Part shown: positions 44,507 to 63,456 of the stretch, piece after piece
How positions within the stretch are numbered: the first letter of the stretch is position 1
Layout of the letters: each line of letters begins with the position of its first letter
Assembly: GCA_963745075.1 (NCBI GenBank)
Contig: CAVUWV010000026.1
Span: 16,023-80,022, forward strand
DNA: 64,000 nucleotides
Origin: Candidatus Hydrogenedentota bacterium
GTDB lineage: Bacteria > Hydrogenedentota > Hydrogenedentia > Hydrogenedentales > SLHB01
Reading direction: 5' to 3'
Position numbers and translations under genes: made by a program
The notes under the pieces: generated by a model
Databases searched by the model: none
The model's input: the letters and a program-made list of their open reading frames with translations, nothing else
Told to the model about the DNA's origin: nothing

Positions 44507-47296
44507 CTACTGTCCATATCCCAATGCGTTGAGATTCTCGCGGTCTTCCTCGGTCAGTTCGGGGACAGAGGTGCGCTTGTGGGCCGGCGATTCGTACCAA
44601 ATGGCGATGGTCGGCTGCTCCGAATCCATCGTAGGAATCGGATCGGGCTGTGGGAAACTCCGCGCCGTGTGATCGAGGACCATGCGCAGGTCCTTGGTTT
44701 CAATCGGGGCATCTTGGCCCAAATACACGAGGATTGGAACATTGCTGTCGGGAGCACTCTTTATATCCAGCGATAGAGATGACTCACTGTTCGCCGTGCG
44801 CAAAACGAGTTCGTCTTCCGTTGTGAACTGATCCCAAAGCAGTTCGACACGGTGGGGAGTTCGATTGATGTTGTGGGTAAAGTCTCGCCGGTCGCCTTGC
44901 GCTAACGGGCTGGAAACAATGGTGTCCTCGGTATTGACCGCGATCGTTGCGGAGACTGGAGTTCGGTTGTACGACAAGGAAAAGTGCCACCCATCCGGCC
45001 TTTCCGCAAAAAAGTCTTTGCGCTTCTGCTCCAACGTTGCCATTTCGGGAGGGGGCGTTTGGTGTAGATCCACGAGTTCCTCGGGATCTCGCTGCAAATC
45101 ATAAAACTGTGAAGTGGAGTGCCGGGGCAAATAAATGAGTTTGTATTGGGGTGTTCGGACCGCTTGCTGTGACATCCGCTGAATATAGGCGAATGAACGG
45201 CCGCCCTGGCCATCTCTGATGACCGGCAATAGACTTCTCCCATCGATCTGGCCCGCGTCTCTCGATGGGTCAATGACGTCCAACACGGTTGGAAAGATGT
45301 CGATGTTCTGAACCAATTCCGAAATCCGCGTTCCGCCATATTCGCCATTGGGGAATCTGATGAGAAGCGGCACCCGCGCGCACTCGTCAAACACTTGCGA
45401 ATGACCGTAAAGGCCATGCTCCGCAAACTCTTCACCATGGTCGGACGTCAGGATGATGAGGGATTGGTCGTAAAGGTTCAGTCGCTTTAACTCGTCAAAG
45501 AAGCGGGTAATTTCATAATCCACCATTCGAATACAGTCGTCGTAAAGGGCAATGCAATATGCCTTTTCTTCGTCGGAGATCGTGATCTCACCCCGATTCG
45601 CCGCGCTCATAAACTCTTCGGTAGGAGGAAAATCAGAATCGACCCGCTTGAATGAAGGCGGCGGATCGAACGCTTTCGCGAAGTGCAGGAAGGATGGGTT
45701 ACCCGGATCGTAGGGTGTCGTATAGCCCATGCTGGAAATCTTCTGGTGACAATCTCCATTGTGAAGGAATAGAAACAGGGAAGGCGTGGGATGCGCGCTC
45801 AGCCATTGGGACGCCCGAATATTGGTATCCGAGATTTTTCGCAGGGGGACGGTTGGCACGTCGTAGAGGTCAAAGCCTTGCGCAAATCCCCAACTGGGCG
45901 CCAGCCAGTACTGGAATCCGGTGAATCCGGCGGCGAGATAGCCCTCTTCACGCGCCACGTCCGCCAGTGTCACAATCGATTCGGCGAGAACGGAATCGGC
46001 CGTTGCCCCGTGTGTTTTCGGATACAGCCCCGATAACATGGATGCATGGGAAGGCATCGTCCAGGTCTCAGGAACGATGGCGTTCTCGAACAGCACGGCC
46101 TCCTGTGCCGCCCAGGCATCGAGGTTTGGCGTCGTCTCTCGTTTGTAGCCGTAGCACGAAAGGTGATCCGCGCGTAAGGTGTCACACGAAATGAGAATGA
46201 CGGGAATGGCCTTCTCAGGTGCATCGCCATAGACGATAGGATCGCCCCAGTAGAAGTAATCATGGTGCTTCGTATTGAGATGATCGACTTCCAGTGTGAA
46301 CGTGACTTGCTGACCTGCGAAGGCATTGAGGTCGATCTTCTTTCCCGCCCACGAATTTCCCCGAGCGTAAAGTCCGGGGTAAACCTTTTCGTTCAACAGT
46401 TCCATCTCGGGACTCTGAGGTGCCTTCATGCGCACAATCATTCGCCCCCTGCCCACTCGGTCCCCCACTCCGAGCGCAACCTCGAACGTGCCCCCAGGCG
46501 GCACCGTCACGGTCCACGGCGGTTGCGTCCCGAACACAACTTCTCGAGTTTCCTCTCCTACCGTCAAGCGTTCGGGGCCTTCGGGAGGGACGTAGACCAA
46601 CTGCATCCCGGCAATTTCTACGTCCGTCGGCACGTCCGACGGTGTGAGAACAATTCTCGTCAGGATACCGTGCCAATACCCTGGCGCCGCCGACTGAAGG
46701 GCGATGCGGTATTCATGGAACTCGCCATCGGGAAACAGCGAAAACGCCACGGTAGAGCCCACTATGTCGTCGCCGCTCAAGTCCGTGAACCACGTCACGT
46801 TCCCCGTTTCGCCGGCCCCGGTCCGCATTTTCAGAACCAACGTGTTGTAGCGATCCGTGGACTCGTCGAGGGGGATCGTAATCGCGGACGGTTCCGTTAC
46901 CTGGCTGACATGTAGACCCTTCGAGTCGGTCGTAACACCCACGTCACTGGGCAATACCGACACCGATTCGAGATCGAGTGATAGCGGGTCAACGTGGACT
47001 TGTCGTATGCGCTTCCAACGTTCCTCCACGAGACGGGCCGGGCGGCTCGAAGGCTCTGTAACATACGGCTCTTGCCGTTCTTGCGCAACAGCGGCGGATT
47101 CGTCCGAAGATTGCCGAGGCGTTGCCGATGGCGTACAACCCTGGGGGAGCAGCGCGCCCAGAAAAGCAATCAGTGAAAACCCGAGACTCCAGGACATGCG
47201 AATGCCCAAGCCCTGACGCACTGCCAGCACCGCGCCTCCCTGCGATACCTGCTTCAAGAGCGCCGGATCGGGAACACGTAACCGCGGACGCTTCAT
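44507..47296 (-). CDS. Sulfatase-like (alkaline phosphatase superfamily) protein; start uncertain
   Basis: ILISCDTLRADHL, WTMPSHASMLSG, TSDHGEEF..HG; possible lipobox LLPQGC. Confidence 0.88.
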   Translation of the reverse strand: MKRPRLRVPDPALLKQVSQGGAVLAVRQGLGIRMSWSLGFSLIAFLGALLPQGCTPSATPRQSSDESAAVAQERQEPYVTEPSSRPARLVEERWKRIRQVHVDPLSLDLESVSVLPSDVGVTTDSKGLHVSQVTEPSAITIPLDESTDRYNTLVLKMRTGAGETGNVTWFTDLSGDDIVGSTVAFSLFPDGEFHEYRIALQSAAPGYWHGILTRIVLTPSDVPTDVEIAGMQLVYVPPEGPERLTVGEETREVVFGTQPPWTVTVPPGGTFEVALGVGDRVGRGRMIVRMKAPQSPEMELLNEKVYPGLYARGNSWAGKKIDLNAFAGQQVTFTLEVDHLNTKHHDYFYWGDPIVYGDAPEKAIPVILISCDTLRADHLSCYGYKRETTPNLDAWAAQEAVLFENAIVPETWTMPSHASMLSGLYPKTHGATADSVLAESIVTLADVAREEGYLAAGFTGFQYWLAPSWGFAQGFDLYDVPTVPLRKISDTNIRASQWLSAHPTPSLFLFLHNGDCHQKISSMGYTTPYDPGNPSFLHFAKAFDPPPSFKRVDSDFPPTEEFMSAANRGEITISDEEKAYCIALYDDCIRMVDYEITRFFDELKRLNLYDQSLIILTSDHGEEFAEHGLYGHSQVFDECARVPLLIRFPNGEYGGTRISELVQNIDIFPTVLDVIDPSRDAGQIDGRSLLPVIRDGQGGRSFAYIQRMSQQAVRTPQYKLIYLPRHSTSQFYDLQRDPEELVDLHQTPPPEMATLEQKRKDFFAERPDGWHFSLSYNRTPVSATIAVNTEDTIVSSPLAQGDRRDFTHNINRTPHRVELLWDQFTTEDELVLRTANSESSLSLDIKSAPDSNVPILVYLGQDAPIETKDLRMVLDHTARSFPQPDPIPTMDSEQPTIAIWYESPAHKRTSVPELTEEDRENLNALGYGQ

Positions 47297-47576
47297 CGAT
47301 ATCCTGCCAACTACCGGGACCATTGGTTTACGCACTTGCATCAAAAGAACCAAGGTGTATGCAGCCAGAAACTTACTAAAACTAAGAATAGCATCTTGAC
47401 GCCTCCATATGCCAGAGAAGAAAACGCCGAGGCGGAGCGATCGACCCCGCGTTGCGCGGTTGCGGAAAGAAGCAAACACGCATTGCCACCGTTGGCGACG
47501 TTTTTGGTATCCTGCGATCAAATAACCAATACGACCACGCATTCGTTCTCCGCGAACGTCGAAGGAGATTCTCAGC

Positions 47577-48971
47577 ATGAACGATCGGAGTATTACGCGT
47601 CGCACATTTGTTTTTGGGAGCGCACTCGCGGCGGGCGGATTGCTTTCGGTACGCGCGGGCGCACGCGCCGTATCGCCGAATGAGAAGCTCAATACGGCCC
47701 ACGTCGGCGTCGGGGGCAAGGGACGCGGCCATCTGAAATTCTGCTTGAACTACGAAAACGTGGTTGCCCTCTGCGACGTCGACGACAAGGCATCCGCCGA
47801 AGCCTATGGTTGGTGTCCGGATGTACCGAAGTACCGCGACTGGCGCGAAATGCTGGAGAAACAGAAAGACATCGACGCGGTCGTCGTCACAACGCCCGAT
47901 CACACGCACGCGATCATCGCGATGGCCGCCATGGAACTCGGCAAACATGTCTATGTCGAGAAACCCATGGGCCACACGGTCGATGAGGTGCGGCGCATGA
48001 CCGAAGCCGCGCGGCGCTATGGCGTGGCCACCCAGATGGGGAACCAGGGTCACTCCAGCGAGGGTGTCCGGCAGACCTGCGAGATAATTTGGAGCGGCGC
48101 CATCGGGCCGGTCCGCGAAGTGCACTGTTGGACCGACCGGCCGATCTGGCCCGTCGGATACGCGGAACCCTTGCCCGAGAAGCCGGTACCCAAAGGGGTC
48201 GACTGGGATCGCTGGTTGGGCCCGATTCCGGCGCGGCCTTTCGGCGGGTATTCGACGCAGTATAACCGTGACGGCTCGACACCCGGTTACATGCCCGACG
48301 TATGGCGCGGGTGGTGGGTCTTTGGCAGCGGCGCTTTGGGCGACATGGGATGCCACATCATGGATCCGCCCAATTGGGCATTGCACCTTGGACCGCCGTC
48401 CGCGGTAACGTGCGTGCAACAGGATGGCAAGACCTCCGAGTGCGAACCGGCCAAAGCCATCATTGAATACGAATTTCCGGAGCGCAGCGTTGAAGGAAAA
48501 TCACTGCCACCCGTGAAACTCACCTGGTACGAAGGTAAGCTCCGTCCGCCAAAACCCGCCATGTTGGCGGAAGACGACCCGACACCGGTCGGCAGCAACG
48601 GAACAATGTTCGTCGGAGAAACAGGTGTTTTGACCTGCGATTCCCACGGCAATTCCGCGCGACTGCATCCCGACAGCCGTATGGCGAACTACACCACCAT
48701 GCCCGAGCCAACCATCGAGCGCGTGCCGTGGAAAGACGACCGGTACGACGAAGCCCATCGCGCCAACTGGGTACAAGCCTGCAAAGGCGGAAAACCGGCG
48801 GTGTCTAACTTCGATTACGCGGGGCCCCTCACCGAGACCGTCCAACTCGGGAACGTCGCCCTGCGCGCCGGCGGCCGTATCGCGTGGAATAGCGCTACCG
48901 GCAAGATTACCAACAACCCCAAGGCCGATGCCCTGATCCGGATCGCCTATCGCAAGGGTTGGGAATTCTAG
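47577..48971 (+). CDS. Tat-exported Gfo/Idh/MocA oxidoreductase
   Basis: TRRTF signal; GVGGKG, TPDHTH, HVYVEKP, GALGDMGCH. Confidence 0.92.
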   Translation: MNDRSITRRTFVFGSALAAGGLLSVRAGARAVSPNEKLNTAHVGVGGKGRGHLKFCLNYENVVALCDVDDKASAEAYGWCPDVPKYRDWREMLEKQKDIDAVVVTTPDHTHAIIAMAAMELGKHVYVEKPMGHTVDEVRRMTEAARRYGVATQMGNQGHSSEGVRQTCEIIWSGAIGPVREVHCWTDRPIWPVGYAEPLPEKPVPKGVDWDRWLGPIPARPFGGYSTQYNRDGSTPGYMPDVWRGWWVFGSGALGDMGCHIMDPPNWALHLGPPSAVTCVQQDGKTSECEPAKAIIEYEFPERSVEGKSLPPVKLTWYEGKLRPPKPAMLAEDDPTPVGSNGTMFVGETGVLTCDSHGNSARLHPDSRMANYTTMPEPTIERVPWKDDRYDEAHRANWVQACKGGKPAVSNFDYAGPLTETVQLGNVALRAGGRIAWNSATGKITNNPKADALIRIAYRKGWEF

Positions 48972-49129
48972 AGCCGTTTACGATCTCTCGCGACCGTCGC
49001 TGGCTTCCCGATTGTCCCGGGCCAACATGCCCGGAAGTCCGGGCGGATCAGCAATTCTGCCAATCGTGGGCACTGACGGACCTCCTCAGACGCGGGTCCC
49101 AGAGCGCAACCTCGGGCCGAGCGCGTTTG

Positions 49130-49933
49130 TCAGTACTGCGCCAGCGTACCGTCACGTTTGGCTTTATTGACAGCCATATCGAACAGTTTCAGGCTTCCTG
49201 GCAGTAGGACCAGGGCCATGCCCCCGAGCAAAAGCAGCTGCGGTGCCACACCACTTATCGTAAAATCCTGAAGCATGGTCAGCCGCAGCGCATCCAGCGC
49301 ATACATCGCCGGAATTATATGCGCCACGTTTTGCAGCCAGTGCGGCATGACTTCTACCGGAAAGTACGCTCCGCCCAGGATCATACTCGCCGATGTAAGG
49401 ACCCAGCCCACCGGGTCGCCCTTCTTCAGAACGACGATGCATGCCGCGGAGACAATGCCAAAGCTAATGAAAACGAGCAAAGCAAGGGCGAACACGACCA
49501 ACGACGCAATTACATTGACATGAGAAAAGTCCACGCCAAAAACCACCGCGCCACAGACAAGAATAATGGCAAGCTGCAAGAACGAGGCGAGCAATGCATA
49601 CATGGTCGACATGAGAATACATGCCTGCGGCGACGTCTGAGTGCTGAGCATGGCTTCGAGACATCCCGTGACCTGCGCGCGTTGAATCGAGTTGGAGTAT
49701 GTGTTTAACGCCACTTGGAAGTACCGGGAAAAGGCCAATCCGATCAACACAAAGGAGAAATAATCACCACCGTATTTGGCAAGGCTCTCCTGAGACGAAT
49801 CGACAATGCGGCTCACAAAATAGAACATGACCAGGGGCAACAACGCGCCGATCGCACTGAGCAAATACGCCATTTTGTAACTCGACTCGGTCTGAAAGTC
49901 GCGTTTAATGAACGTCCACGTCTTGTACAGCAC
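49130..49933 (-). CDS. ABC-2 type exporter permease (RiPP cluster)
   Basis: About six TM segments; GGAYFPVEVMPHWLQ; C-terminal KRDGTLAQY. Confidence 0.88.
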   Translation of the reverse strand: MLYKTWTFIKRDFQTESSYKMAYLLSAIGALLPLVMFYFVSRIVDSSQESLAKYGGDYFSFVLIGLAFSRYFQVALNTYSNSIQRAQVTGCLEAMLSTQTSPQACILMSTMYALLASFLQLAIILVCGAVVFGVDFSHVNVIASLVVFALALLVFISFGIVSAACIVVLKKGDPVGWVLTSASMILGGAYFPVEVMPHWLQNVAHIIPAMYALDALRLTMLQDFTISGVAPQLLLLGGMALVLLPGSLKLFDMAVNKAKRDGTLAQY

Positions 49934-49945
49934 GGCCGCTCCTCG

Positions 49946-50713
49946 TCACATCACCAGTTCGCGATACCGCGCGAACAGTGAACCGGGCCGGGAATGGATT
50001 TGTGCTACGTCATCCGAGGCCGCGATGCGCGCCTCTCGAACCACACACATCCGGTTACACAGGGCCAGCACTTCATCCAGCTTGTGTGTGGCAATCAGCA
50101 GAGTCTTTTCGTGATATCGGTGTATGCGATCGATCAACAGTTTCGTAAGGTCCTCCGCGGCGACCGGGTCCAACGCCCGCGTCGGCTCGTCGAGAATGAG
50201 TACGTCAGGGTCGGCCAACAGCCCGCGGGCGATTGCCAGACGTTGCCGCATGCCCGATGAATAACCCGCAACCTGCTGGTCTGCGCTGTCTTCCAAACCG
50301 ACCAGGTTCAGCAATTCGCGAATCCGACCTTGCAGTACCGGTCCTCGCAAATTGTCCAGGACACCGAAGAACTCCAGGTTCTGCTTCGCCGTCAGGCGCC
50401 AATAAAAGCTGCGCTCCTCGTTCATGACGAACCCCACTGATTTCCGGGCCGCCGTGTTTTCGCGAGACGTATTCCGACCGTTGACGCGAACCGTCCCCTT
50501 TGTCGGTAGGATGAGTCCGCCAATCACCTTCAGCAGTGTGGTCTTCCCGGCTCCATTGGGACCTAAAAACGCCACCCGTTCTCCACGTTCTACGGTGAAC
50601 GTAACGTCTTCGATACCCGTGACGCGTCGCGGCGGCGTGAATGGATGCAACACGTACTCCCGATACCGCTTGGGCACGGGGTAACAGACTGTGACGTTTT
50701 CCAGTGCAATCAT
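49946..50713 (-). CDS. ABC exporter ATP-binding protein (RiPP cluster)
   Basis: GPNGAGKTT, YSSGMRQRLAIARGLL, ILDEPT, ATH. Confidence 0.93.
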   Translation of the reverse strand: MIALENVTVCYPVPKRYREYVLHPFTPPRRVTGIEDVTFTVERGERVAFLGPNGAGKTTLLKVIGGLILPTKGTVRVNGRNTSRENTAARKSVGFVMNEERSFYWRLTAKQNLEFFGVLDNLRGPVLQGRIRELLNLVGLEDSADQQVAGYSSGMRQRLAIARGLLADPDVLILDEPTRALDPVAAEDLTKLLIDRIHRYHEKTLLIATHKLDEVLALCNRMCVVREARIAASDDVAQIHSRPGSLFARYRELVM

Positions 50714-50749
50714 TGCCGCTCTGCGATCCTCACGTCGTTGGCGGTCCCA

Positions 50750-51988
50750 TCAGCGGAGACGACGGACGAGGGACGGACCATGCCGTATCGCCAACCGGGC
50801 AGGCCGGGAAATGTAGTGCAATGCCGAGAGAACCGCCGGCAGTCCGGGAAGCACGTATTTGTCGTTGAATTCGGGGGTCGCGATGGCACGCGTGTACCGC
50901 AGACGTTCCTCGATGGGCGACCACTCCCGGCCCCAATCGGCCCGGATCGATCGAAAGGCACGCACGAACTCGCGCCATTCCTGGAACCCGGGCAAACCAA
51001 ACCCTTTTCGACTCAACCGACCCAAAACCAGCCCCGCGTAGGCGAGCGCCTGAGGATACCGCGCCAGACGCGCGTGAACAACAGAGGGCATGGGTGCGTT
51101 CAGCAACACCGATGCCAGGTACACCCCTAGCAGGATCGCACGCTCTTCGTCGAGTCGCGCCGCCAACTCCAGCACTTTGTGCCAGTCCATCTCCGGATAG
51201 TTCGCCACGATGCGCGCGACATCGGCGAGAAGCTTCAGCTCGCCCCATCGGTGTTTAATATCGGCATGCAGAAAGGAGACAACTGCGGCGCACTCCGGGG
51301 ATAGCGTGAGCATTCTCGCACCAAAATGCTTTCCCGGTCGCACATGGTTCCAAACGAAGTTGGCAGACGCCGCGCCACCCATGACAGGCGGCATCAACCG
51401 CCAATGCAGTTCCAGTGATTGACCGTGAATCGGAGTGAAGAACACTTCTTCGCAGTCCCAGGCGCGTAACCGGCTTTCGCGGCCGCGGTCATGGCTGTCT
51501 TCCGGAGTGTAGCCGTTGTCCACCAGCAGTTTCCGGGCCCGGGCGACATCGCTCTCCACGACAAGCACGTCCAAATCCCAGATATGCCGATGGGAAATAT
51601 CGCCGTAGAGCAGCCGGGCCTGCACGGGACCTTTATAGGGTAACAACGGGATGGACGCCGCTTCGAATAATTTCGTCACTGCGACCAATTCGCTAACCAG
51701 CAACAAATTGCGCCGAACCACGGTCGCCTTCTCAACGCGAAGCTTCTCGACCACGTCGACTGGTACCAATCCAAGTCCAACCTGGTTCAAGCGCCAGTAC
51801 AGCAGGGATGGAATGGCGTGATGATTCGTACAATCCAGAACGTAGTCCCAATCCAAATCTAAGTCAAGGAGAATACGAATGCGCTCAACTCTGCCATCGG
51901 AATCGTCGACCCCGGCCGCGCAAAAAAGCAATTCAGCCTCCGGACGAATCGGCAGGCCCCCGGCTGTTGATGCCGCCTCAGCCATCAC
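50750..51988 (-). CDS. Nucleotidyltransferase family protein (NTP_transf_5-like; RiPP cluster)
   Basis: LPYKGP...LYGDISHRHIWDLDVLV, LELHWRL, LKLLADVA motifs. Confidence 0.85.
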   Translation of the reverse strand: MMAEAASTAGGLPIRPEAELLFCAAGVDDSDGRVERIRILLDLDLDWDYVLDCTNHHAIPSLLYWRLNQVGLGLVPVDVVEKLRVEKATVVRRNLLLVSELVAVTKLFEAASIPLLPYKGPVQARLLYGDISHRHIWDLDVLVVESDVARARKLLVDNGYTPEDSHDRGRESRLRAWDCEEVFFTPIHGQSLELHWRLMPPVMGGAASANFVWNHVRPGKHFGARMLTLSPECAAVVSFLHADIKHRWGELKLLADVARIVANYPEMDWHKVLELAARLDEERAILLGVYLASVLLNAPMPSVVHARLARYPQALAYAGLVLGRLSRKGFGLPGFQEWREFVRAFRSIRADWGREWSPIEERLRYTRAIATPEFNDKYVLPGLPAVLSALHYISRPARLAIRHGPSLVRRLR

Positions 51989-53064
51989 ATCTCGTCAACG
52001 GCCGATGCACGGACACCGCCGTTCGCCAGTGGTCCCTCGTCAAAGGCTCCCGCCCGCGCCGTGCCCTCGAGAAAGTGAAGATAGGCCTTCTTCTTCAGGG
52101 TCGTCAGAGCCGTGAGTTCCGGCGGCAAACCCCGGAATACGCGCTCGATGAGGGGTCGAGGATCAGCCGCGATACCGCCCGCAAACACAGCGACTGCCTT
52201 CGGAAACACGTCGTCGGCCCACTCCGGTTTGACGTGCAAGGCAGCGCGCAACATACGTTGTGCCGGTTCGATCTCGTTGAACGCGTACGCCCGGCACGCT
52301 GCAAGCAGATCGAAACGCGCCTCGATCGTTTCACGTTCCGCTCGAATTTCATCGGGAAGGTCGGTCCGAGCGAACCATTTGTTCGTCATGCGGGCCACGC
52401 CTTCCCGGTAGGCCGCTCCGCCAAGACTACCCATCGTGTTAAGATCGTGCAGCCGATAACACGAAACCACGTTCTCTATCCATGCCATTTTGCATCCCCC
52501 GAACACAAGGCGGACAAAAAAGTCCGTGTCTTCAAAAGGTTCGACTTCGCGATCGAACGGCACGTCGAGGTCCTCTACAACTGCGCGTTTGGACATCACC
52601 GCCGACAGGTTGAGTGCGCCAAAATTCTCCACACAGTCACGCCAATCAAGGTTGGGCGCCGTCTTCCAGGGGCGCGCATTTTGTATGGGCGAACCGCTAG
52701 AATCGACGTATTGAAAGCCGGAAGCCACCATGCCAATTTCAGGGTGTTCCTCCAGAAACACGACTTGAACGTCAATCCTCTCCGGGAGAAACAAGTCGTC
52801 GTCGTCCACAAAAACCACGTACCGTCCCGAGGATTCCTCGAAACCGAGGTTGCGTGCGGCGCTGCGACCGCTGTTGACTTGGTGGACGACACAAATGCGC
52901 GGATCGGTCAATGACGCAAGGTATGCGTCTGTGTCGTCGGTACTGCCATCGTTCACAACCACCACTTCCCAATCCTGGCACGTCTGGGCCAGAACACTCT
53001 GGATCGTCTCCTCGAGCAGCGAGCGCCGGTTGTACGTTGGGACGATGACACTTACAAGGTGCAT
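51985..53064 (-). CDS. Glycosyltransferase family 2 (RiPP cluster)
   Basis: VSVIVPTYNR, VVNDGSTD, GRSAARNLG, FVDDDD, EDTDF. Confidence 0.92.
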   Translation of the reverse strand: MHLVSVIVPTYNRRSLLEETIQSVLAQTCQDWEVVVVNDGSTDDTDAYLASLTDPRICVVHQVNSGRSAARNLGFEESSGRYVVFVDDDDLFLPERIDVQVVFLEEHPEIGMVASGFQYVDSSGSPIQNARPWKTAPNLDWRDCVENFGALNLSAVMSKRAVVEDLDVPFDREVEPFEDTDFFVRLVFGGCKMAWIENVVSCYRLHDLNTMGSLGGAAYREGVARMTNKWFARTDLPDEIRAERETIEARFDLLAACRAYAFNEIEPAQRMLRAALHVKPEWADDVFPKAVAVFAGGIAADPRPLIERVFRGLPPELTALTTLKKKAYLHFLEGTARAGAFDEGPLANGGVRASAVDEM

Positions 53065-54138
53065 GCCGATTCACTTTCTTGCCTCATGCCGCAGATGGAC
53101 AGTGCATGCCGCTGCAAGAACATGCGGTACGCTTCCTTCTTGCATAAGCGCAGGGACGCCAGGCTCTCCGGCAGATGGTCAAAAGCGTACTCGATGTAAG
53201 GACGTGGATCGCTGATGCGAAACCCAGCGCAGCGGACCAACGTTTTCAGTGTTGCCGCCGGTACCCACGCAGCATCCCATTCACAGGCCACGCTAAAATG
53301 CTCCCCGGCACGCTCCGTATCCTGCACCGTCAACGCTCGGCATGCGCACACGACATGGTAGTTCGCGTACACCCGCGGGCGGTCGTTCAGAACCTCGCCC
53401 GGTAGGTCCGGCAAAGCAAAAGCCTTGTCCAATGCTCGGCGATACGCCGTAGCAAGATCCGCACTTCCACCGGCGCGATCCGTCCCTCGGACTCGATAGA
53501 GGCTGACGAATTGCGGCTCAAGGGCTGCTTCCCCGGCCACGTACATCAAGCGCAAGAAAAAGTCACCGTCTTCCGCCAGGTCCATCGTCGGGTCGAACCA
53601 CTCGCTCATCTCGGCCAACAGGGCCCGGCGAAAAAGCACCGTACTCGTAATCATGTGGGGCCCGAACAAGGCACTGTGAAAGGTCAATCGATTGACGTTC
53701 GCGCCACGGCGCAAATTTCCCCAACTCCCGGCCCGCCTCATCCACGTACGTGGCGCCGCCGGTTACCACCGCACACTCCGGGTGGGCCCCCAAATAGGCC
53801 GTTTGCATCCCAAGCTTTTCAGGCAGGTATTCGTCATCGTCATCGAGAAACGCTACGAATTCACCGCGGGCTGACGCTAAACCCCGGTTTCGTGCCGCAC
53901 TTCGGCCGCTGTGCCGTTGACGAATGATCCGCACACGCAGGTCGTCCTGGCGCCACTCCTTTGCGCCGGCTTCGTCCGATCCATCGTCCACGACAATCAC
54001 TTCGAAATCGCCAAACGATTGCCGCAACACACTGTCGACCGCGGAAGCCAAGAATAGACTTCGATTGTACGTGGGAATAACAACGCTTACCGCCGGCCCC
54101 GTTTCGGTCTTGCCCGCCCTGTAACGTTGCCTACTCAT
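53052..54138 (-). CDS. Glycosyltransferase family 2 paralog, apparent frameshift at ~53665 (RiPP cluster)
   Basis: VSVVIPTYNR, VVDDGSD and FLDDDD in one frame; EDGDFFLRL and a C-terminus paralogous to the next gene in another frame; ATGA overlap with the kinase stop. Confidence 0.85.
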
Positions 54139-55100
54139 ACCGCTGCGGGAAGGTCCGCCTCCACCAGATCCACTAACCGCGATAAGTCGCCCAACGATGC
54201 GCTCCGTGTCAGGGTGCGAACCGGCACGCACTTCGCCAATTCGCCAGACTGACGGAAGCACTCGCCCAACCGCCGATCCTTGAGGAATCCCCATCCGAAC
54301 TTCGACAAGTCCCAATGGGGCATGAGGGCCAGTTGCGCCTGCTTCGCATCGAGCGGCGTGATTCCCGGTTTGGACGCCGTTTCCAGGATATACATCCGTT
54401 CGAGCGGAGCTGGATCTTCGCGGAAGCGGCGTGCTACTCCACAAGACCGTTTGTCTGTATCGTCCCGGATTCGTGGAAGCGCTTCGATAGCGACGTTCAG
54501 GGCTTGAGCGGAATCCGGCCACAACTTAAACCGCGGAAAGCCGGGCAGGGCCAGAGGCCTACGGGTGGTCAAATCGAGGACCAAGACGTCGTCTGACAGC
54601 AGCGTGTGGCCCCTTCCATGCAACGCGGCGGCAATGGTGGTTTTACCGGCATGGGGATGACCGAGAAAGGCTGCCGCCATGCCGTCCACGCATACAACGC
54701 TGCCGTGAAACACCCAAAGGCCGCGCTGATGCAGCGCAATATTCAGGGCGGCGCCGAGGATGAAAAGGCGAAGGGTGGATGGTTTCATACTCGGATGCGG
54801 GTCCAGAACGATCTCTCGCCCCCCGCGAAACAAGAATCGGCCTTCGCCCGGCGAGTACAGCGTCATCTCGCCATTGCTATCCTGATACGTGCAGCACCAG
54901 TCTTTCTCGTTCGGCAGGGGGGGCAGGGGCCGGATTTTGAGGACCAGGTCCGCGCAAACCCCTTGGCCCTCTGGACGGACACGTAACTCGGGCAGTTGAA
55001 CTTCTGAATCCAGCTCAACTCCATATGCATCATAGTGAAAAATTCCCGAACCTTGGGTATCGGGCATTTCATCCACTGCGCTAAATCGATCTAAACTCAC
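54135..55100 (-). CDS. HPr-kinase-like P-loop kinase (lasso-cluster-type kinase)
   Basis: YDAYGVELDSE, LHQRGLWVFHGS, GHPHAGKTT Walker A, LLSDDV, KLWPDS. Confidence 0.85.
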   Translation of the reverse strand: MSLDRFSAVDEMPDTQGSGIFHYDAYGVELDSEVQLPELRVRPEGQGVCADLVLKIRPLPPLPNEKDWCCTYQDSNGEMTLYSPGEGRFLFRGGREIVLDPHPSMKPSTLRLFILGAALNIALHQRGLWVFHGSVVCVDGMAAAFLGHPHAGKTTIAAALHGRGHTLLSDDVLVLDLTTRRPLALPGFPRFKLWPDSAQALNVAIEALPRIRDDTDKRSCGVARRFREDPAPLERMYILETASKPGITPLDAKQAQLALMPHWDLSKFGWGFLKDRRLGECFRQSGELAKCVPVRTLTRSASLGDLSRLVDLVEADLPAAV

Positions 55101-55479
55101 GTGGTCGCTACTCTTGATACCAACGATTGCCGCGAAATACCGAGCAAAAACCCAAGGCCATTTTGACCGAGGCCGGCAATACCCCTTCTTTCGACGTTTT
55201 CTACATTCAAGTCAACATGTGCGTGAAACAAAACGACACTTGGAGCTTCACCACCCCGACGCCCCCCCGCATGTTGAGAATCTCTTCTCGGTACGTGTTC
55301 TTCACCTCCCAGGTGCAACGCCCGCTACGGCAAGGATGATCGGTCGCGGAAATATGATTTCGTAAGTCGAATTGACCTGAGCCCCGACTTCAACCGGACT
55401 CAATCGACATACTGCGTTGGACCCGGTCAGCCTTCAACTGCTTATACACCTACCGCTCCGAAGCAACAGTCCAAAAGGA

Positions 55480-55593
55480 TTAGGTAAACGGACTGAACGG
55501 CCGACCGTGGCCGTGTCGCCATTGAGTCAGGTTGCTGACACTACCTCGCACAACAAGAACCGGACGCACGTACGGTTTCTTGACTCCTGCCAT
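55480..55593 (-). CDS. RiPP precursor 2 (37 aa): MAGVKKPYVRPVLVVRGSVSNLTQ-WRHGHGRPFSPFT
   Basis: Read manually (below ORF-track cutoff); RBS GGAAGGAG; lasso-type leader YxxPxL-x3-G-x5-T; leader 18/24 identical to precursor 1. Confidence 0.85.
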   Translation of the reverse strand: MAGVKKPYVRPVLVVRGSVSNLTQWRHGHGRPFSPFT

Positions 55594-55694
55594 GGAATCG
55601 ACTCCTTCCCTGCGATTAGCAGACACGGCGGCGCGGACGCAATTACAGTCGAAAGGCCTTAAGCTCTCAATGCTCTGCAGATCAACTCCGCAGC

Positions 55695-55799
55695 TTACGG
55701 ACCAATCGGGCTCACTGCTGGTGGCATTTGTGTCAATTCACTGACGCTGCCACGCACTACGAGAATAGGTTGCTCGTACGGTTTTTTAGCTACAGCCAT
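55695..55799 (-). CDS. RiPP precursor 1 (34 aa): MAVAKKPYEQPILVVRGSVSELTQ-MPPAVSPIGP
   Basis: C-terminal end of track ORF 55695..56063; true start ATG 55799 after AAGGAGGTGA; lasso-type leader motif. Confidence 0.85.
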   Translation of the reverse strand: MAVAKKPYEQPILVVRGSVSELTQMPPAVSPIGP

Positions 55800-55861
55800 C
55801 AAATCACCTCCTTCCCTGCAATCCACACCCGCGCCGCCGCACGTCTGTTTGGAGACTGCAT

Positions 55862-56299
55862 CTATCGCCCCTGTCCGGGCGACGGAAATGGTACATATCG
55901 GTCCACCTGTGGTGAGCCACCCAAGATGATACTTCCTTCCTGCTCCAACCAAGCATGCGCTTCGAACTGTCCGCTTTCGTTGTGTCCCACGCCAATACGC
56001 AAAACCGATGAACTCCCCAATCGCCCCAACACCCACTTTGCCGCCAGCGCCTTCACCAGGCACGTCACCCCCGGTACGTAACGGCCGGCCTTCTCGACAG
56101 CCCAGACAACGTCACGCCCCGTCGCACTTGCGTCCCGCACCTGTCGCGCCTCGCGTTCACCCACTTCGATGCGCCGACGCCACAACCGAAAGGGCAACAC
56201 TCCCACGACGACCCTCGCGACACAGAGCGCCAACCACATCCGAAAAAAGAGCCGTCGACGGTCCCCTGAAAGCCTAACGAATTTCCGAAGTCGTTCCAT
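55862..56299 (-). CDS. Lasso-type leader peptidase (B2, transglutaminase-like)
   Basis: TCLVKALA...LRIGV...FEAHAWLE with catalytic Cys/His and a following acidic residue. Confidence 0.92.
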   Translation of the reverse strand: MERLRKFVRLSGDRRRLFFRMWLALCVARVVVGVLPFRLWRRRIEVGEREARQVRDASATGRDVVWAVEKAGRYVPGVTCLVKALAAKWVLGRLGSSSVLRIGVGHNESGQFEAHAWLEQEGSIILGGSPQVDRYVPFPSPGQGR

Positions 56300-56585
56300 C
56301 AGCGTATTTCACGAGGTCATGTTGGGCCAAATCCCGGAGCAGATCTTGCAAGTCCCGCTCGCAAGTTTCACGATCAACGTCGTACTCGTCCAGAATCACG
56401 TCCCGAACGTCCCCGAATCGTTGCGGCGTCTGCAGCAGTTTCCAGATGCGGGCGGCAACGGCGTCCATCTCGTAGTACTTCCCATCAGCCAGATTGAGAA
56501 TGACTTCCGCCCCTTCCAACTCACAGGAAACCTGCTCTTCGCTGGCCACGAGGACAGAGCCGTCGGCGATTTTGTCAAGATCCAA
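56274..56585 (-). CDS. PqqD-family RiPP recognition element (B1)
   Basis: VSCELEGAEVILNLADGKYYEMDAVAARIWKLL...EYDVDRETCERDLQDLL; RBS GGGGAGG. Confidence 0.93.
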   Translation of the reverse strand: MDLDKIADGSVLVASEEQVSCELEGAEVILNLADGKYYEMDAVAARIWKLLQTPQRFGDVRDVILDEYDVDRETCERDLQDLLRDLAQHDLVKYADGTTSEIR

Positions 56586-57024
56586 TTATCCTCCCCCTAA
56601 AATCATGGACCGGCCCCTTCCCCAAGTCCCGGAATAGCAGCAATATTCATACCGACCGTATTACCTAAGTCGAGCACTCACCCATACAACATCCAAAGCA
56701 CTGATTATAGGTCACTTAGAGACATAAGCCTCCACCTGAAATACCAAATTCCCGAGGACCGCGAATATTTCCGTGAATACTGATTGGTCGTGGCTGACAA
56801 ATATGTGATCAAGCGAACACCGCATATGAGCCGCACGAAACCCTGCCACGACCGGACTCGTAACGCGGCATCAAAGGCCAACGACAAATCCTCGTTGGAC
56901 ATGATATTCCAACTTCTCACAGCAATCCCGCGCTGGAATTCTGAATTCCGACGAACTCGTCCGGCTAGCGCGAACATTCTAATTCCTGTCAAGCACTTCT
57001 GAGGACGATGATTGTCGGACCGTG

Positions 57025-57555
57025 GCCACTCGTCCTAAAAAGACTTCCCGCCACCCAGTCGTAGAATCCTGACACGGAGGGATTGTAACGATCGCTGATG
57101 CTGGATCCGAAGCCGAGGCCCTCGTTGTATCAGCCGCCGCTCACGCTAGCCGACACACCGGGTGTCGCGTTGAAGAGACCCGCTAAGAACCCACCATCGC
57201 TGGAGTACTCATGCTCCAGGCCAACCACCAGGTTATACGAGCCCCAACGACCATACACGACGGTAGAGGGCCGTTAGTTGTAGCCGGTAATGGAGTTCCC
57301 GCGCCCCGAGAGCCCCGTGCTGTCTTCCGTATCGCCGCTGCCGCTGCGAATGTGGACATTACAGCCCTCAATAATGAGATGCGGTCCGTTCACTCCGTTA
57401 ATAAAACCTTCATGGACGCTAACATTGGCAAGTTTGGCTTCGAGCGCTTGGACTCGACGCTCCAAGATCATCTGTGGGGAACCAAAGAACGTGCCCTTCG
57501 AGAGGGCAAGCATGACAACAGCAAATATGGTGAATTTGCGCGCGAGGTGAGTCAT
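57025..57555 (-). pseudogene. Decayed exported protein with G/N/S-rich (SVSGG..N) repeats
   Basis: Frame reads on through TAA (57274) and TGA (57130): GNSITGYN*RP..GSYNLVVGLEHEYSSDGGFLAG..SASVSGG*YNE..GFYDWVAGSLF. Confidence 0.6.
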
Positions 57556-57752
57556 GGTGGTTCTCTCATGGCTGGGCGGGACCACCCCGTCAAAATCAAG
57601 AGCGGTCTTGCCTGTTATCTGAGGTTCGACCTTTGAATGGATGGAGCAGGTCCGTTATAGAGTGGGATCACAAATTCCGAAACCCTTGCCGCTTCAAAAA
57701 TGGTATTCAACCGCAACCTTGGGCCTGACGGAATTACGGTGGAATTACAAGC

Positions 57753-57789
57753 AAAAAGGGCCTACAGGCGTACTACCTGTAAGCCCTTT
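57753..57789 (-). terminator. Intrinsic terminator after tRNA-Ala
   Basis: Minus strand AAAGGGCTTACAGG-loop-CCTGTAGGCCCTTTTT. Confidence 0.7.
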
Positions 57790-57797
57790 ATTATCAA

Positions 57798-57873
57798 TGG
57801 TGGAGCTGAACGGGATCGAACCGTCGACCTCTGCATTGCGAACGCAGCGCTCTCCCAGCTGAGCTACAGCCCC
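57798..57873 (-). tRNA. tRNA-Ala (anticodon CGC)
   Basis: GGGGCTGTAGCTCAGCTGGGAGAGCGCTGCGTTCGCAATGCAGAGGTCGACGGTTCGATCCCGTTCAGCTCCACCA; 76 nt, G3:U70 pair, encoded CCA. Confidence 0.97.
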
Positions 57874-57904
57874 ACAGAAAAACCGTGGTCGGTGATTGAA
57901 GCGG

Positions 57905-57934
57905 AGTGTACCAAAGGGCTTGGCGACATTTCAA
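57905..57934 (-). promoter_or_regulatory. Likely tRNA promoter
   Basis: TTGAAA-N18-TACACT with extended -10 TG. Confidence 0.55.
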
Positions 57935-57951
57935 TGGGCCTTACGCCCTGG

Positions 57952-59538
57952 TGTCGAAACTCTTTGATAATGTCCCCTGGAAAACTCATTAGAAATGTCC
58001 CCATGGTTGCGGCCTTAGAAAGGAGGCTGCGTGGAAGGGGACATTTTGATGAGTCGCAAGGAGCGTACGCGCAAGTCGGTGTTGGATCGTGTGAAGAGTG
58101 GTGCGTTGAAGCTGCGTGAGGCGGCGGAGATGCTGGGGTTGAGCTACCGGCAGTGTAAGCGGGTGTATGCGCGGTATCGCCGGGAAGGAGATGTAGGGCT
58201 GGTTCACCGGCGGCGCGGGAAGTCGTCTGCGCGGGCCAAGCCCCCGGAAATGCGGGAGAAGGTGCTGGCGCGTTACGAGGAGCGCTACAAGGGCATGGGT
58301 CCGACGTTGGCGGCCGAGAAGCTGGCGGAGGAGGGTTTGGTGCTGGACCACGAGACGCTGCGGCGCTGGCTGATTGCGGCGGGGCTTTGGCAACGAGCCC
58401 GCAAACGGGGTCCCCATCGAACGCGGCGGCCGCGTAAGGAGCACTTCGGAGAGTTGGTCCAGTTCGACGGCAGTCACCACGCCTGGTTCGGTCCCGACTA
58501 TCCCCGAGCGTGTCTGATGAATCTGGTGGACGACGCCACGGGGCGTACCTTGGCTACGATGGATGTCCAAGAAACCACCGAGGCTGCCATGCGGACCCTG
58601 TGGAAGTGGATTGAGCGTTACGGCGTCCCCAAGGCGCTGTATTGTGACCGCAAGACCGTATATGTCACGGAGCGCGAACCGACGGTGGAAGAGCAGTTGG
58701 CGGACGAAGAACCCTTGACCAGCTTCGGAAAAGCCTGTAAAAAGCTGGGAATTCAGATCATTACCGCCTACAGCCCTCAAGCCAAAGGCCGGGTGGAACG
58801 CAATCACGGCGTCTATCAAGACCGCCTGTTCCACGAACTGCGCTTACGCCAAATCACCACCATTGAGCAGACCAATGCCTTACTGGAAAACGGCTTCGTC
58901 GACCACCTCAACGAAAAGTTTGCCCGTCCCGCACAAAAGACGCATAACCTCCACCGTCGGCTCCCCAAGAACGTCGACCTGCGCGACGTGTTCTGCTTTG
59001 AAGAGTACCGTACCGTGGGCAATGACTGGACCGTTCGTCACCAAAACCGCTTTTTCCAAATACACAAAACCAAGAAGCACTTGCCCAAACCGAAGCACAA
59101 GGTCCTCGTACGCACTTGGCTCGATGGAAGCATTCACCTCGTGTACAACGGTCACAAACTCGACTATGAACAACTCGACGAACCGCCGTGCAGACCCGCC
59201 AAGCCCGCCGCGAAAAAGCCCAAGGCCAGCACCCCCCCATCAAAACCAAAACCCCGCCACGACCACCCATGGCGCAAGCGGCGCGTGGCATGATGGCCAG
59301 TGGCATCGGAAAGAACCAATGAGTTTTTCGCTTTGCAGGATTCCGGTTACAAAAAGCCGGGACAGCCACCCCACCCGGGGTGGCTGTCCCGGAACCGTCT
59401 ATCCACCTGACGGGCGCTCAGGTCGCTCTCCAGCGTTGCCCTATCCTCCCGCCAAGTCCACCTACTGTAGCAGAAAACAAAAAACAGGGGACATTTCTAA
59501 CGAGTTAACACCGGGGACATTTTAATCGAGCTTTGACA
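57952..59538 (+). mobile_element. Insertion sequence, IS1202/ISNCY type
   Basis: About 51-bp imperfect TIRs (TGTC...GACA), each with two AATGTCCCC subrepeats, around a single transposase. Confidence 0.9.
58031..59293 (+). CDS. DDE transposase (IS1202/ISNCY type)
   Basis: N-terminal HTH, FGELVQFDGSHHAWF, VDDATG, ALYCDR, AYSPQAKGRVER. Confidence 0.95.
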   Translation: MEGDILMSRKERTRKSVLDRVKSGALKLREAAEMLGLSYRQCKRVYARYRREGDVGLVHRRRGKSSARAKPPEMREKVLARYEERYKGMGPTLAAEKLAEEGLVLDHETLRRWLIAAGLWQRARKRGPHRTRRPRKEHFGELVQFDGSHHAWFGPDYPRACLMNLVDDATGRTLATMDVQETTEAAMRTLWKWIERYGVPKALYCDRKTVYVTEREPTVEEQLADEEPLTSFGKACKKLGIQIITAYSPQAKGRVERNHGVYQDRLFHELRLRQITTIEQTNALLENGFVDHLNEKFARPAQKTHNLHRRLPKNVDLRDVFCFEEYRTVGNDWTVRHQNRFFQIHKTKKHLPKPKHKVLVRTWLDGSIHLVYNGHKLDYEQLDEPPCRPAKPAAKKPKASTPPSKPKPRHDHPWRKRRVA

Positions 59539-59553
59539 GGCGCCGTTCAGGTA

Positions 59554-60731: not shown

Positions 60732-60755
60732 GGAAAAACGCTCCTTCCCAGCGCC

Positions 60756-61862
<1,107 letters not shown>

Positions 61863-61893
61863 GTTGGTCTCGAACTGCGATTACGTACTTCGG

Positions 61894-63445: not shown

Positions 63446-63456
63446 GGTGACTCCCA

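What the first reader, a model, noticed from the sequence alone, without database searches (positions are those of the whole stretch)
49130..56585. Cyclase-less lasso-like RiPP cluster: candidate new class of linear phospho-/glyco-peptides
Seen: one minus-strand run of RRE (B1), B2 peptidase, two precursors, HPr-kinase-like kinase, GT2, GT2, nucleotidyltransferase, ABC ATPase and permease. It is bounded by a convergent oxidoreductase on one side and a pseudogene/tRNA on the other, so the whole cluster is visible, and it contains no asparagine-synthetase-like cyclase. Established: lasso peptides need that cyclase and a core Asp/Glu at positions 7-9; in paeninodin and pseudomycoidin clusters a similar kinase phosphorylates a C-terminal Ser, and in pseudomycoidin a nucleotidyltransferase is linked to glycosylation of the phosphoserine. 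Inference: here the leader/RRE/peptidase module has been kept and the tailoring enzymes have become the class-defining chemistry. The product would be an exported linear peptide carrying a phospho-linked nucleotide or glycan, possibly a peptide-primed glycan.
Basis: partly seen in the sequence, partly recalled or inferred. Interest (0 to 1): 0.92.

Follow-up and report, generated by a model that had tools for sequence, protein, structure and literature searches.

The report
Cyclase-free phospho-glycopeptide gene cassette
This is a conserved operon in uncultured Hydrogenedentota bacteria that keeps the leader-handling genes of lasso peptides but has no ring-closing enzyme and no ring-forming residue; it likely makes tiny linear, phosphate- and sugar-decorated peptides, a variant of a family first published in 2026, and would be a handy system for testing what the unexplained nucleotidyltransferase of such pathways does.

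Summary
Observation confirmed, with two corrections: the first GT2 is frameshifted in this assembly, and a decayed third precursor copy lies at 55207-55305. No lasso cyclase is in the cluster, and neither core has Asp/Glu. It is not a decayed lasso cluster: the same gene order, cyclase-free, occurs in four genomes of a second Ca. Hydrogenedentota genus, with dN/dS 0.04-0.35 and intact catalytic motifs; 0 of 11 distinct cores has Asp/Glu and all 11 have an internal Ser. But it is not a new class in concept. Popov et al. 2026 (PMC13381572) described linear polyphosphorylated peptides (LPPs): RRE, HprK-like kinase, NTP transferase, exporter, no cyclase. This cassette works like an LPP but fails membership: B2 cysteine peptidase rather than signal peptidase, lasso leader, ABC-2 exporter, 6-13-residue Pro-rich cores. 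This scan has already noted B2-type cyclase-less cassettes on other DNA. What is particular here is a tandem GT2 pair fixed between kinase and nucleotidyltransferase, outside any polysaccharide locus: plausible candidates for the partner enzymes that the pseudomycoidin and LPP papers invoke. All chemistry is inferred; nothing was tested at the bench. New variant of a known kind; interest 0.52.

The parts
56274..56585 (-). B1: discrete RRE (PqqD family)
   Evidence: PF05402 E 1.5e-17 over cut-off; NF033536 below cut-off; 55-61% identical to orthologs
55862..56299 (-). B2: transglutaminase-like leader cysteine peptidase; Cys80 and His115 present and invariant in 5 of 5 orthologs
   Evidence: PF13471, NF033537 over cut-off; alignment; positions; the only B2 found in the genome
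55695..55799 (-). Precursor A1, 34 aa: Tyr(-17), Pro(-14), Leu(-12), Thr(-2) leader; predicted 10-residue core MPPAVSPIGP
   Evidence: NF033521 over cut-off; cleavage site inferred from the lasso Thr(-2) rule
55480..55593 (-). Precursor A2, 37 aa: same leader register; predicted 13-residue core WRHGHGRPFSPFT
   Evidence: NF033521 E 0.0022, just under cut-off
55207..55305 (-). Degenerate third precursor-like ORF (32 aa): leader Pro and Thr(-2) both replaced, ribosome-binding site abuts the start; probably a pseudogene
   Evidence: leader score reached by 1 of 3000 random genome windows and 0 of 2000 shuffles
54135..55100 (-). HprK-like peptide kinase with His132, Lys153, Asp170, Asp171
   Evidence: four residues invariant in 17 of 17 aligned homologs; motif as described for lasso kinases in PMC9266682 and PMC10368454
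53052..54138 (-). GT2a: glycosyltransferase family 2, split by a +1 frameshift near 53690 in this assembly; intact (about 343 aa) in 4 of 4 orthologs
   Evidence: both halves 52-58% identical to orthologs; assembly background
51985..53064 (-). GT2b: GT-A domain plus helical, TPR-like C-terminal domain; full-length paralog of GT2a (38% identity)
   Evidence: model pLDDT 92.7; fold searches
50750..51988 (-). PF14907 nucleotidyltransferase (PsmN/LppN/BsfN type); Lys119, Gly120, Asp138, Asp140, His195 invariant in 55 of 55 aligned homologs
   Evidence: model pLDDT 91.6; pol-beta-like fold matches; the only PF14907 gene found in the genome
49946..50713 (-). ABC exporter ATPase, DrrA-like
   Evidence: PF00005; best NCBIfam TIGR01188 drrA, under cut-off
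49130..49933 (-). ABC-2 permease, DrrB-like
   Evidence: PF01061; best NCBIfam TIGR01247 drrB, under cut-off
57798..57873 (-). tRNA-Ala(CGC); the cassette occupies the variable slot at its 3' side (context, not part of the pathway)

Best explanation
The operon is a conserved, cyclase-free cassette of lasso-pathway genes with acid-free, Ser-containing cores, and it likely makes short linear peptides that are predicted to be phosphorylated on an internal Ser, further decorated by the nucleotidyltransferase and the two GT2 enzymes, cut from the leader by B2 and exported. Steps: (1) B1 binds the YxxPxL leader (motif shown; binding inferred from lasso/LPP RREs). (2) The kinase, helped by B1, puts one or more phosphates on the internal Ser of the conserved hydrophobic-Ser-Pro stretch (catalytic residues and Ser conservation shown; reaction inferred from BsfK and LppK). 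(3) The nucleotidyltransferase does phosphoryl-transfer chemistry on the phospho-Ser (adds NMP or a sugar-1-phosphate), and GT2a and GT2b add one sugar each, giving a Ser-phosphate-(di)saccharide like the one or two hexoses of pseudomycoidin (folds and gene linkage shown; reactions and order inferred, the weakest step). (4) B1/B2 cleave after Thr(-2)-X; with no cyclase and no side-chain carboxylate the 6-13-residue Pro-rich core stays linear (absence shown; cleavage inferred). (5) The ABC-2 pair exports it (inferred). Most likely role: a secreted or surface-bound small glyco-phosphopeptide; untested.
For: Same order B1-B2-A(n)-K-GT2-GT2-N-ABC-permease with no cyclase in 5 of the 10 kinase-positive genomes among 135 of the phylum, with differing upstream neighbours. 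dN/dS 0.04-0.35 in 71 of 76 gene pairs; 5 not computable. 0 of 11 distinct cores has Asp/Glu, 11 of 11 have an internal Ser, 9 of 11 Ser-Pro. In six metagenome loci 98-99.9% identical to G036's locus the leader DNA is unchanged while the core varies around a fixed Val-Ser-Pro. Across loci, Asp/Glu at core 7-9 in 55 of 67 precursors beside a cyclase, 2 of 21 without. Kinase His-Lys-Asp-Asp, B2 Cys/His, NTase DxD all intact. Published precedent for each step: internal-Ser phosphorylation (PMC10368454, PMC13381572), PsmN-dependent hexoses on the phosphate (PMC6993621). The NTase model has an NMP-transferase fold (MenT1 Z 12.9, rmsd 3.1, 181 aligned; ANT(2'')-Ia Z 10.6, rmsd 3.2, 162 aligned), which fits a division of labour with real glycosyltransferases.
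Against: No biochemistry and no expression data. GT2a is frameshifted in this assembly and the reads laid do not settle it; a third precursor copy has decayed. The GT2b model's best matches are glycan- and teichoic-acid-acceptor enzymes (WrtF Z 27.6, RmlT Z 25.6, TarP/TarS about 24), so nothing shows a peptide-linked acceptor. LppN gave no product in B. subtilis (PMC13381572). The five cassettes come from two genera of one family, so their conserved order is shared ancestry, not independent recruitment. One related metagenome fragment (L169) has B1-A-K-GT2 with no adjacent B2. Other cyclase-less cassettes in the same phylum lack GT2s altogether (G034, G086), so the GT2s are not needed for the cyclase-less design.
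Confidence: 0.55

Rival explanations
1. The peptide is only (poly)phosphorylated and perhaps nucleotidylated; the two GT2s are operon passengers acting on another acceptor such as a surface glycan or lipid.
For: GT2b resembles glycan-acceptor GT-A enzymes; cyclase-less cassettes in G034 and G086 have no GT2; one GT2 is broken in this assembly; LppN and glycosylation were not seen in the LPP study (PMC13381572).
Against: The GT2s overlap their neighbours by 4-13 bases between kinase and NTase, are present in 5 of 5 cassettes under the same purifying selection (dN/dS 0.11-0.25), and no other surface-polysaccharide gene lies in the flanks examined. The closest GT2b homologs share source and contig length with the closest kinase homologs (P0064/P0034, P0065/P0043), suggesting co-location.
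Confidence: 0.22
2. The phosphopeptide is a primer or carrier (like a polyprenyl-diphosphate) on which the GT2 pair alternates to build a longer repeating glycan that the ABC-2 pair exports.
For: Two paralogous GT2s could alternate as in chondroitin/heparosan synthases, which top the sequence search; PF01061 also covers glycan exporters (recalled); lasso and LPP clusters often sit in capsule loci (PMC13381572); cores are short Pro-rich scaffolds around one Ser.
Against: Transporter scores best as DrrA/DrrB and its nearest relatives among my loci are in cyclase-bearing lasso clusters L089, L095, L101 (41-44% ATPase, 34-39% permease); no chain-length, capping, sugar-synthesis or outer-membrane export gene in the cassette; only one or two hexoses were seen on pseudomycoidin (PMC6993621).
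Confidence: 0.1
3. The family is functional, but this genome's copy is starting to decay (real GT2a frameshift, dead third precursor) and makes a less decorated peptide or none.
For: Frameshift near 53690; degenerate ORF 55207-55305; gene remnant and IS481-like element next to it; cassette not found in 5 of 5 congeners.
Against: 13 of 142 ortholog pairs with congener G003 are frameshifted in this assembly, about one event per 10 kb, so one in a 7.5 kb cassette is expected; both GT2a halves are as conserved as the neighbours; all other genes are intact. For the frameshift alone I put error versus real at about 55:45.
Confidence: 0.09
4. It is a lasso cluster served by a cyclase elsewhere in the genome, or a dead remnant of one.
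For: Genome is 89.7% complete; it has four AsnB-like genes on other contigs, one lacking the N-terminal Cys; cyclase-profile scores of divergent true cyclases (200-818) overlap those of AsnB, so score alone does not exclude them.
Against: No core has a side-chain carboxylate, so no macrolactam can form whatever enzyme is present. All four score higher as amidotransferases than as NF033535, fall on the AsnB side of the tree (SH-aLRT 99; two are long branches) and lie away from RiPP genes. Purifying selection across five genomes.
Confidence: 0.04

Closest known systems
Linear polyphosphorylated peptides (LPP; lppA-K-B-S-D-N) of Bacillota, Popov et al. 2026, PMC13381572
   Same: Discrete RRE, YxxP leader, HprK-like kinase, uncharacterised NTP transferase, ABC exporter, no macrolactam cyclase; internal core Ser as the (shown there, inferred here) phosphorylation site.
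   Different: B2 cysteine peptidase instead of SipW-like signal peptidase; lasso-type leader ending in Thr(-2) instead of YxxPxVLxHQxIxFETxxS; two-gene ABC-2 exporter instead of MsbA-like; two GT2s inside the operon; 6-13-residue cores versus a 45-residue core; Hydrogenedentota, not Bacillota; not in a capsule locus; no lasso cluster found in the same genome.
Pseudomycoidin/paeninodin-type phosphorylated lasso peptides (psmA-K-B1-B2-N-C-D), PMC6993621, PMC9266682
   Same: B1, B2, kinase with His-Lys-Asp-Asp, PsmN-type NTP transferase with a DxD pair, exporter.
   Different: No cyclase; no Asp/Glu; Ser is internal, not C-terminal; glycosyltransferases are encoded in the operon, whereas psm has none.
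Bsf-type lasso clusters of Bradymonadales (bsfA-K-B1-B2-N-C-D), PMC10368454
   Same: Gram-negative host, YxxPxL leader, RRE-assisted kinase acting on an internal core Ser, B2, NTase of unknown function.
   Different: bsf has a cyclase and Asp8; Ile(-2) versus Thr(-2); no GT2.
Glycosylated RiPPs with a GT2 enzyme (IgtG lasso peptides, PMC11912497; SunS glycocins, recalled)
   Same: A GT2 in a RiPP operon; Ser as possible acceptor; GT-A plus helical/TPR-like domain as in SunS (SunS hit at E 1.7e-7 over the catalytic domain only).
   Different: IgtG is a membrane deacetylase-GT2 fusion acting on a threaded lasso; glycocins have Cys-rich cores and C39 transporters (recalled). Neither has the kinase-NTase pair.

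Membership tests
Lasso peptide | RRE (B1) and cysteine leader peptidase (B2) | tested here: met
Lasso peptide | Leader YxxPxL at -17..-12 and Thr(-2) | tested here: met
   NF033521
Lasso peptide | Asparagine-synthetase-like macrolactam cyclase in the cluster | tested here: not met
   none in 48900-58000 nor in the four orthologous loci
Lasso peptide | Cyclase acting in trans from elsewhere in the genome | tested here: inconclusive
   four AsnB-like genes group with amidotransferases; genome 89.7% complete; moot because cores lack Asp/Glu
Lasso peptide | Asp/Glu at core position 7-9 | tested here: not met
   0 of 11 distinct cores has any Asp/Glu
LPP (Popov 2026) | Discrete RRE + HprK-like kinase + NTP transferase, no cyclase | tested here: met
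LPP (Popov 2026) | Archaeal-type signal peptidase I (SipW-like) as leader peptidase | tested here: not met
   no such gene among the cluster's ORFs; the 3 PF00717 matches in the genome are on other contigs; B2 present instead
LPP (Popov 2026) | Leader consensus YxxPxVLxHQxIxFETxxS | tested here: not met
   only YxxP shared
LPP (Popov 2026) | MsbA-like single-gene transporter | tested here: not met
   separate ATPase and ABC-2 permease
LPP (Popov 2026) | Kinase-dependent (poly)phosphorylation of one core Ser | not testable with these tools
   Ser present in 11 of 11 cores; reaction needs the bench
Glycocin (SunS type) | Cys-rich disulfide-bonded core and C39-peptidase transporter (recalled) | tested here: not met
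   0 of 11 cores has Cys; no C39 domain hit on the transporter genes
Glycocin (SunS type) | SunS-like peptide glycosyltransferase fold | tested here: inconclusive
   GT-A plus helical domain; SunS hit by sequence over the catalytic part only; top fold rows are other GT2s
Wzm/Wzt-type glycan export system | Transporter pair closest to glycan exporters, with chain-terminating or sugar-binding partner | tested here: inconclusive
   best NCBIfam matches drrA/drrB, all under cut-off, only the best 25 of 197 shown for the ATPase; no partner genes in the cassette

The most novel reading that the evidence does not exclude
The lasso ring has been discarded and the core shrunk to a Pro-rich handle for a single Ser, on which a self-contained kinase + nucleotidyltransferase + two GT2 relay builds a phospho(di)ester-linked glycan: a bacterial peptide-phospho-glycan assembly line in which the peptide serves as primer, and whose GT2s are the missing partners that explain what PsmN/LppN/BsfN-type enzymes do.
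Probability: 0.3. Interest if true: 0.78.

Novelty: new variant of a known kind. Interest (0 to 1): 0.52.

Why it matters
PF14907 enzymes accompany most of the kinase loci examined here, yet their reaction is unknown: the pseudomycoidin paper could not tell whether PsmN is itself a glycosyltransferase or feeds a host one (PMC6993621), the LPP paper saw no LppN product and proposed a partner outside the core cluster (PMC13381572), and BsfN is uncharacterised (PMC10368454). This cassette is compact, sharply bounded, outside any polysaccharide locus, has only two glycosyltransferases and cores short enough to synthesise, so it makes that question directly testable. It also shows that linear phosphopeptides are not confined to Bacillota or to signal-peptidase processing, and that cyclase loss goes together with loss of the ring Asp/Glu in several lineages.

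Tried and rejected
Reads: two DNA runs hold 7-9% of the words, no RNA holder listed; their contigs, laid on 48500-58000, show no listed indel but none of the 16 pieces shown (52 not shown) spans 53690, so the frameshift stays open. Promoter scan: 0 sigma-70 sites (shuffles 3.2), terminators at chance level apart from the one after the tRNA. No direct repeat of the tRNA 3' end in the window. Cyclase-profile score as a discriminator: rejected, because held-out cyclases and AsnB overlap. PDB sequence search with the NTase profile: nothing under E 0.35; Foldseek nothing under E 0.001. SunS was not among the 50 fold rows shown for GT2b, which excludes nothing. Atlas search of the GT2b C-terminal part: unnamed clusters, one with TPR_14 in 23% of members, a lead only. 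Weak PF13471 matches in about 500-aa frames across the phylum were set aside as unrelated proteins and not followed. The careful cyclase tree did not finish; the quick tree is used. The kinase tree (FastTree) does not identify the lasso lineage from which this cassette came. Literature: 7 searches listed no paper on a B2-retaining, cyclase-less kinase/NTase/GT2 cassette; most subscription journals are not in the library, I judged most hits from listings only, and I did not open the supplements of PMC13381572, whose co-occurrence tables may bear on this. Earlier-findings look-ups by this kinase sequence and by Hydrogenedentes words returned nothing. No complex prediction was run.


Full report
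Observation. B1/B2 overlap, kinase through NTase overlap by 4-13 bases, and the last gaps are 36 and 12 bases, so one operon is the natural reading (inferred). Both precursors have Tyr(-17), Pro(-14), Leu(-12) and Thr(-2), the lasso leader register, which predicts cores MPPAVSPIGP and WRHGHGRPFSPFT. A profile built from the asparagine-synthetase-like proteins of my loci finds nothing in six frames of 48900-58000. Two things were missed: GT2a carries a +1 frameshift near 53690, and a degenerate third precursor copy lies at 55207-55305, with a leader score reached by 1 of 3000 random genome windows and 0 of 2000 shuffles.

Host and context. Named homologs of the kinase at 62-65% identity are from Ca. 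Hydrogenedentes, so the window is very likely from that phylum (inferred). The cassette sits at the 3' side of tRNA-Ala(CGC). In congener G003 (99% complete) the same tRNA-to-oxidoreductase interval is 3.8 kb and holds a UroD-like and a GH95 gene; G005 has an integrase-bearing island there; G002 has an intact relative of the gene whose remnant lies at 57122-57396. The cassette was not found in 5 of 5 congeners (72-99% complete). It is therefore an accessory element in a variable slot; gain versus loss was not resolved.

No cyclase in trans is needed or likely. The genome (89.7% complete) has one B2 and one PF14907 gene, both here, and PF00733 matches at five places. The four long ones score better as amidotransferases than as NF033535, sit among glycosyltransferase genes or alone, and fall with Cys2-bearing AsnB on a quick IQ-TREE of 59 proteins, apart from the cluster-linked cyclases (SH-aLRT 99; two are long branches). 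The short C8 match was not followed. The four orthologous genomes have two AsnB-like matches each, all under cut-off, beside GNAT or GT2 genes. Profile scores alone do not separate divergent cyclases from AsnB. The decisive point is chemical: no core has a side-chain carboxylate.

Conservation. Of 135 genomes in the phylum, 10 have this kinase. Five have the exact order B1-B2-A(1-2)-K-GT2-GT2-N-ABC-permease with no cyclase: this genome and G036, G129, G131, G133 (4 of 8 genomes of one other genus). G129's contig ends just after the permease and G131's is short, but a metagenome locus identical to G131's over 8617 bases supplies both flanks. Two (G080, G106) are ordinary cyclase-bearing clusters; two (G034, G086) are a second cyclase-less type without GT2 or adjacent exporter, four precursors each, with a hydrophobic/Gln-Ser-Leu motif; one (G096) has no cyclase hit and two ATP-grasp-like genes. 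dN/dS for the eight enzyme and transporter genes is 0.04-0.35 in 71 of 76 pairs; 5 could not be computed, and pairs with this genome have saturated dS. B2 Cys/His, kinase His-Lys-Asp-Asp and NTase Lys-Gly/DxD/His are invariant. Nine metagenome loci were returned; 8 are related cassettes or fragments. Counting these, there are 11 distinct cores of 6-13 residues: none has Asp, Glu or Cys, all have an internal Ser, none ends in Ser, 9 have Ser-Pro. Among six loci 98-99.9% identical to G036's, the leader DNA is unchanged and the core has four variants, all keeping Val-Ser-Pro; only a few substitutions are involved, so this is suggestive, not a test of selection. L169 has B1-A-K-GT2 with no adjacent B2.

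Wider census. Of the best 80 of 169 confirmed kinase loci in the genome collection, 57 have a cyclase-like gene within 8 kb, 9 have none with at least 3 kb of flank on both sides, and 14 are cut by contig ends (local profiles). Adding the window and Hydrogenedentota loci, Asp/Glu stands at core positions 7-9 in 55 of 67 precursors beside a cyclase and in 2 of 21 without; core starts were assumed from the Thr/Val(-2) rule and kin are not independent. On a FastTree of 86 kinases the five cassettes form one branch (99); the cyclase-less label needs 9 changes, at least 4 forced by well-supported branches, which points to repeated loss but is not a rooted test. The GT2 pair was seen only in this branch.

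The frameshift. GT2a is intact in 4 of 4 orthologs, and both halves here are 52-58% identical to them, like the neighbours. Of 247 crude ORFs from 400 kb of G003, 142 had a good ortholog in this genome and 13 of those are frameshifted here, roughly one event per 10 kb, so an assembly error is quite possible; a recent real mutation is not excluded, and the reads laid do not decide it.

Folds. GT2b (pLDDT 92.7) is a GT-A domain with a helical C-terminal part that hits TPR proteins weakly; top matches are a Leptospira GT (Z 28.6, 187 aligned), WrtF (27.6), chondroitin polymerase (26.3), RmlT (25.6, rmsd 3.5, 296 aligned) and TarP/TarS. This gives no acceptor specificity. The NTase (pLDDT 91.6) matches pol-beta-like NMP transferases: MenT1 (Z 12.9), ANT(2'')-Ia (10.6), LnuA (9.2); FKRP is lower (6.5). 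A shared fold shows no function, but it argues that N does phosphoryl-transfer chemistry rather than being a conventional glycosyltransferase. The ABC pair is DrrA/B-like and its nearest relatives among my loci are in cyclase-bearing lasso clusters.

Known systems. Popov et al. 2026 (PMC13381572; I read the abstract, introduction, first two results sections, the WxxP/YxxP section, the discussion and found passages, not the supplements) define LPPs: SpI peptidase, discrete RRE, HprK kinase, NTP transferase, MsbA-like exporter, no cyclase, Bacillota only; LppK polyphosphorylates core Ser3, lppN deletion changed nothing, and they suggest a partner encoded outside the core cluster. Zyubko et al. 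(PMC6993621, passages) show PsmN-dependent one or two hexoses on the phosphate and leave open whether PsmN is the transferase or feeds a host one. Duan et al. (PMC10368454, passages) show RRE-assisted phosphorylation of internal Ser3 and no function for BsfN. PMC9266682, PMC7470986 and PMC11912497 were seen as passages only; the RRE-Finder paper notes that about half of lasso-like RREs lack the accompanying peptidase and cyclase. The cassette works like an LPP, is not a member as defined, and is not a lasso cluster. Earlier notes of this scan report B2-type cyclase-less cassettes in other phyla (27 findings in at least 22 genomes held all search words, 8 shown) and RRE-kinase-GT2-NTase cassettes without peptidase; they are unchecked AI notes and count as leads only. 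I had found the LPP paper before consulting them.

Verdict. Shown: gene content, absence of cyclase and of ring residues, conservation, purifying selection, intact catalytic motifs, folds. Inferred: every reaction, the cleavage site, export and biological role. My odds: linear and maintained as a family about 0.9; Ser phosphorylation about 0.75; GT2-dependent glycosylation of the phosphopeptide about 0.55 overall. New variant of a known kind, whose value is as a compact test bed for the PF14907 question.

Noticed in passing
window 55207-55305 (-): Degenerate third precursor copy with the leader Pro and Thr(-2) replaced; its would-be core also has Val-Ser.
   Followed up: yes
window 57951-59539: IS481-like element directly upstream of tRNA-Ala; at least five more near-identical copies on other contigs.
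   Followed up: partly
window 59539-64000: Stretch 95-96% identical to the starts of contigs C10 and C6 of the same assembly: recent duplication, strain mixture or assembly redundancy; the enolase-superfamily-like gene at about 59554-60731 looks frameshifted.
   Followed up: no
window 57122-57396: Remnant of a multi-copy secreted beta-roll-like protein family; an intact relative lies right after the same tRNA in G002.
   Followed up: partly
L024 7178-11609 (G034) and L061 6829-10381 (G086): Second cyclase-less type in Hydrogenedentota: kinase apart from B1-B2-NTase, four precursors each, Val/Ile-Val-Ser-Leu or Gln-Ser-Leu motif, no GT2.
   Followed up: partly
L062 1296-7536 (G096): NTase, two or three uncharacterised genes (one ATP-grasp-like by Atlas, score 0.95), RRE, Gly/Ser- then Lys/Glu/Trp-rich precursor, kinase, B2; no cyclase hit. 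Possibly a kinase/ATP-grasp hybrid RiPP.
   Followed up: partly
L102 8050-12000: Phycisphaerales locus with B1, B2, four precursors sharing Gly-Ser-Gly-Leu/Ile-Pro, kinase and NTase, no cyclase within about 8 kb; several genes in pieces.
   Followed up: no
L125, L137, L143 around the kinase: Bacteroidales/Rikenellaceae loci: kinase + sulfotransferase (PF00685) facing B1-B2 and NTase, no cyclase hit and no precursor found by my profile.
   Followed up: no
L090 9018-13928: Cassette with an Arg/Lys-rich, acid-free core ending in Ser, short B2 match, MsbA-like exporter and NTase, no cyclase.
   Followed up: no
L022 7499-9364 (G036): Secreted purple-acid-phosphatase-like gene just upstream of B1 in G036 (and apparently G129) but not in G131, G133 or this genome.
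   Followed up: no
L011 9803-11520 (G000 C13): AsnB-like gene lacking the N-terminal Cys, split in two, beside a formyltransferase and a GT2.
   Followed up: partly
window 44507-47719 (-): 1070-aa sulfatase with long N-terminal extension, next to the oxidoreductase; not linked to the cassette in relatives.
   Followed up: no
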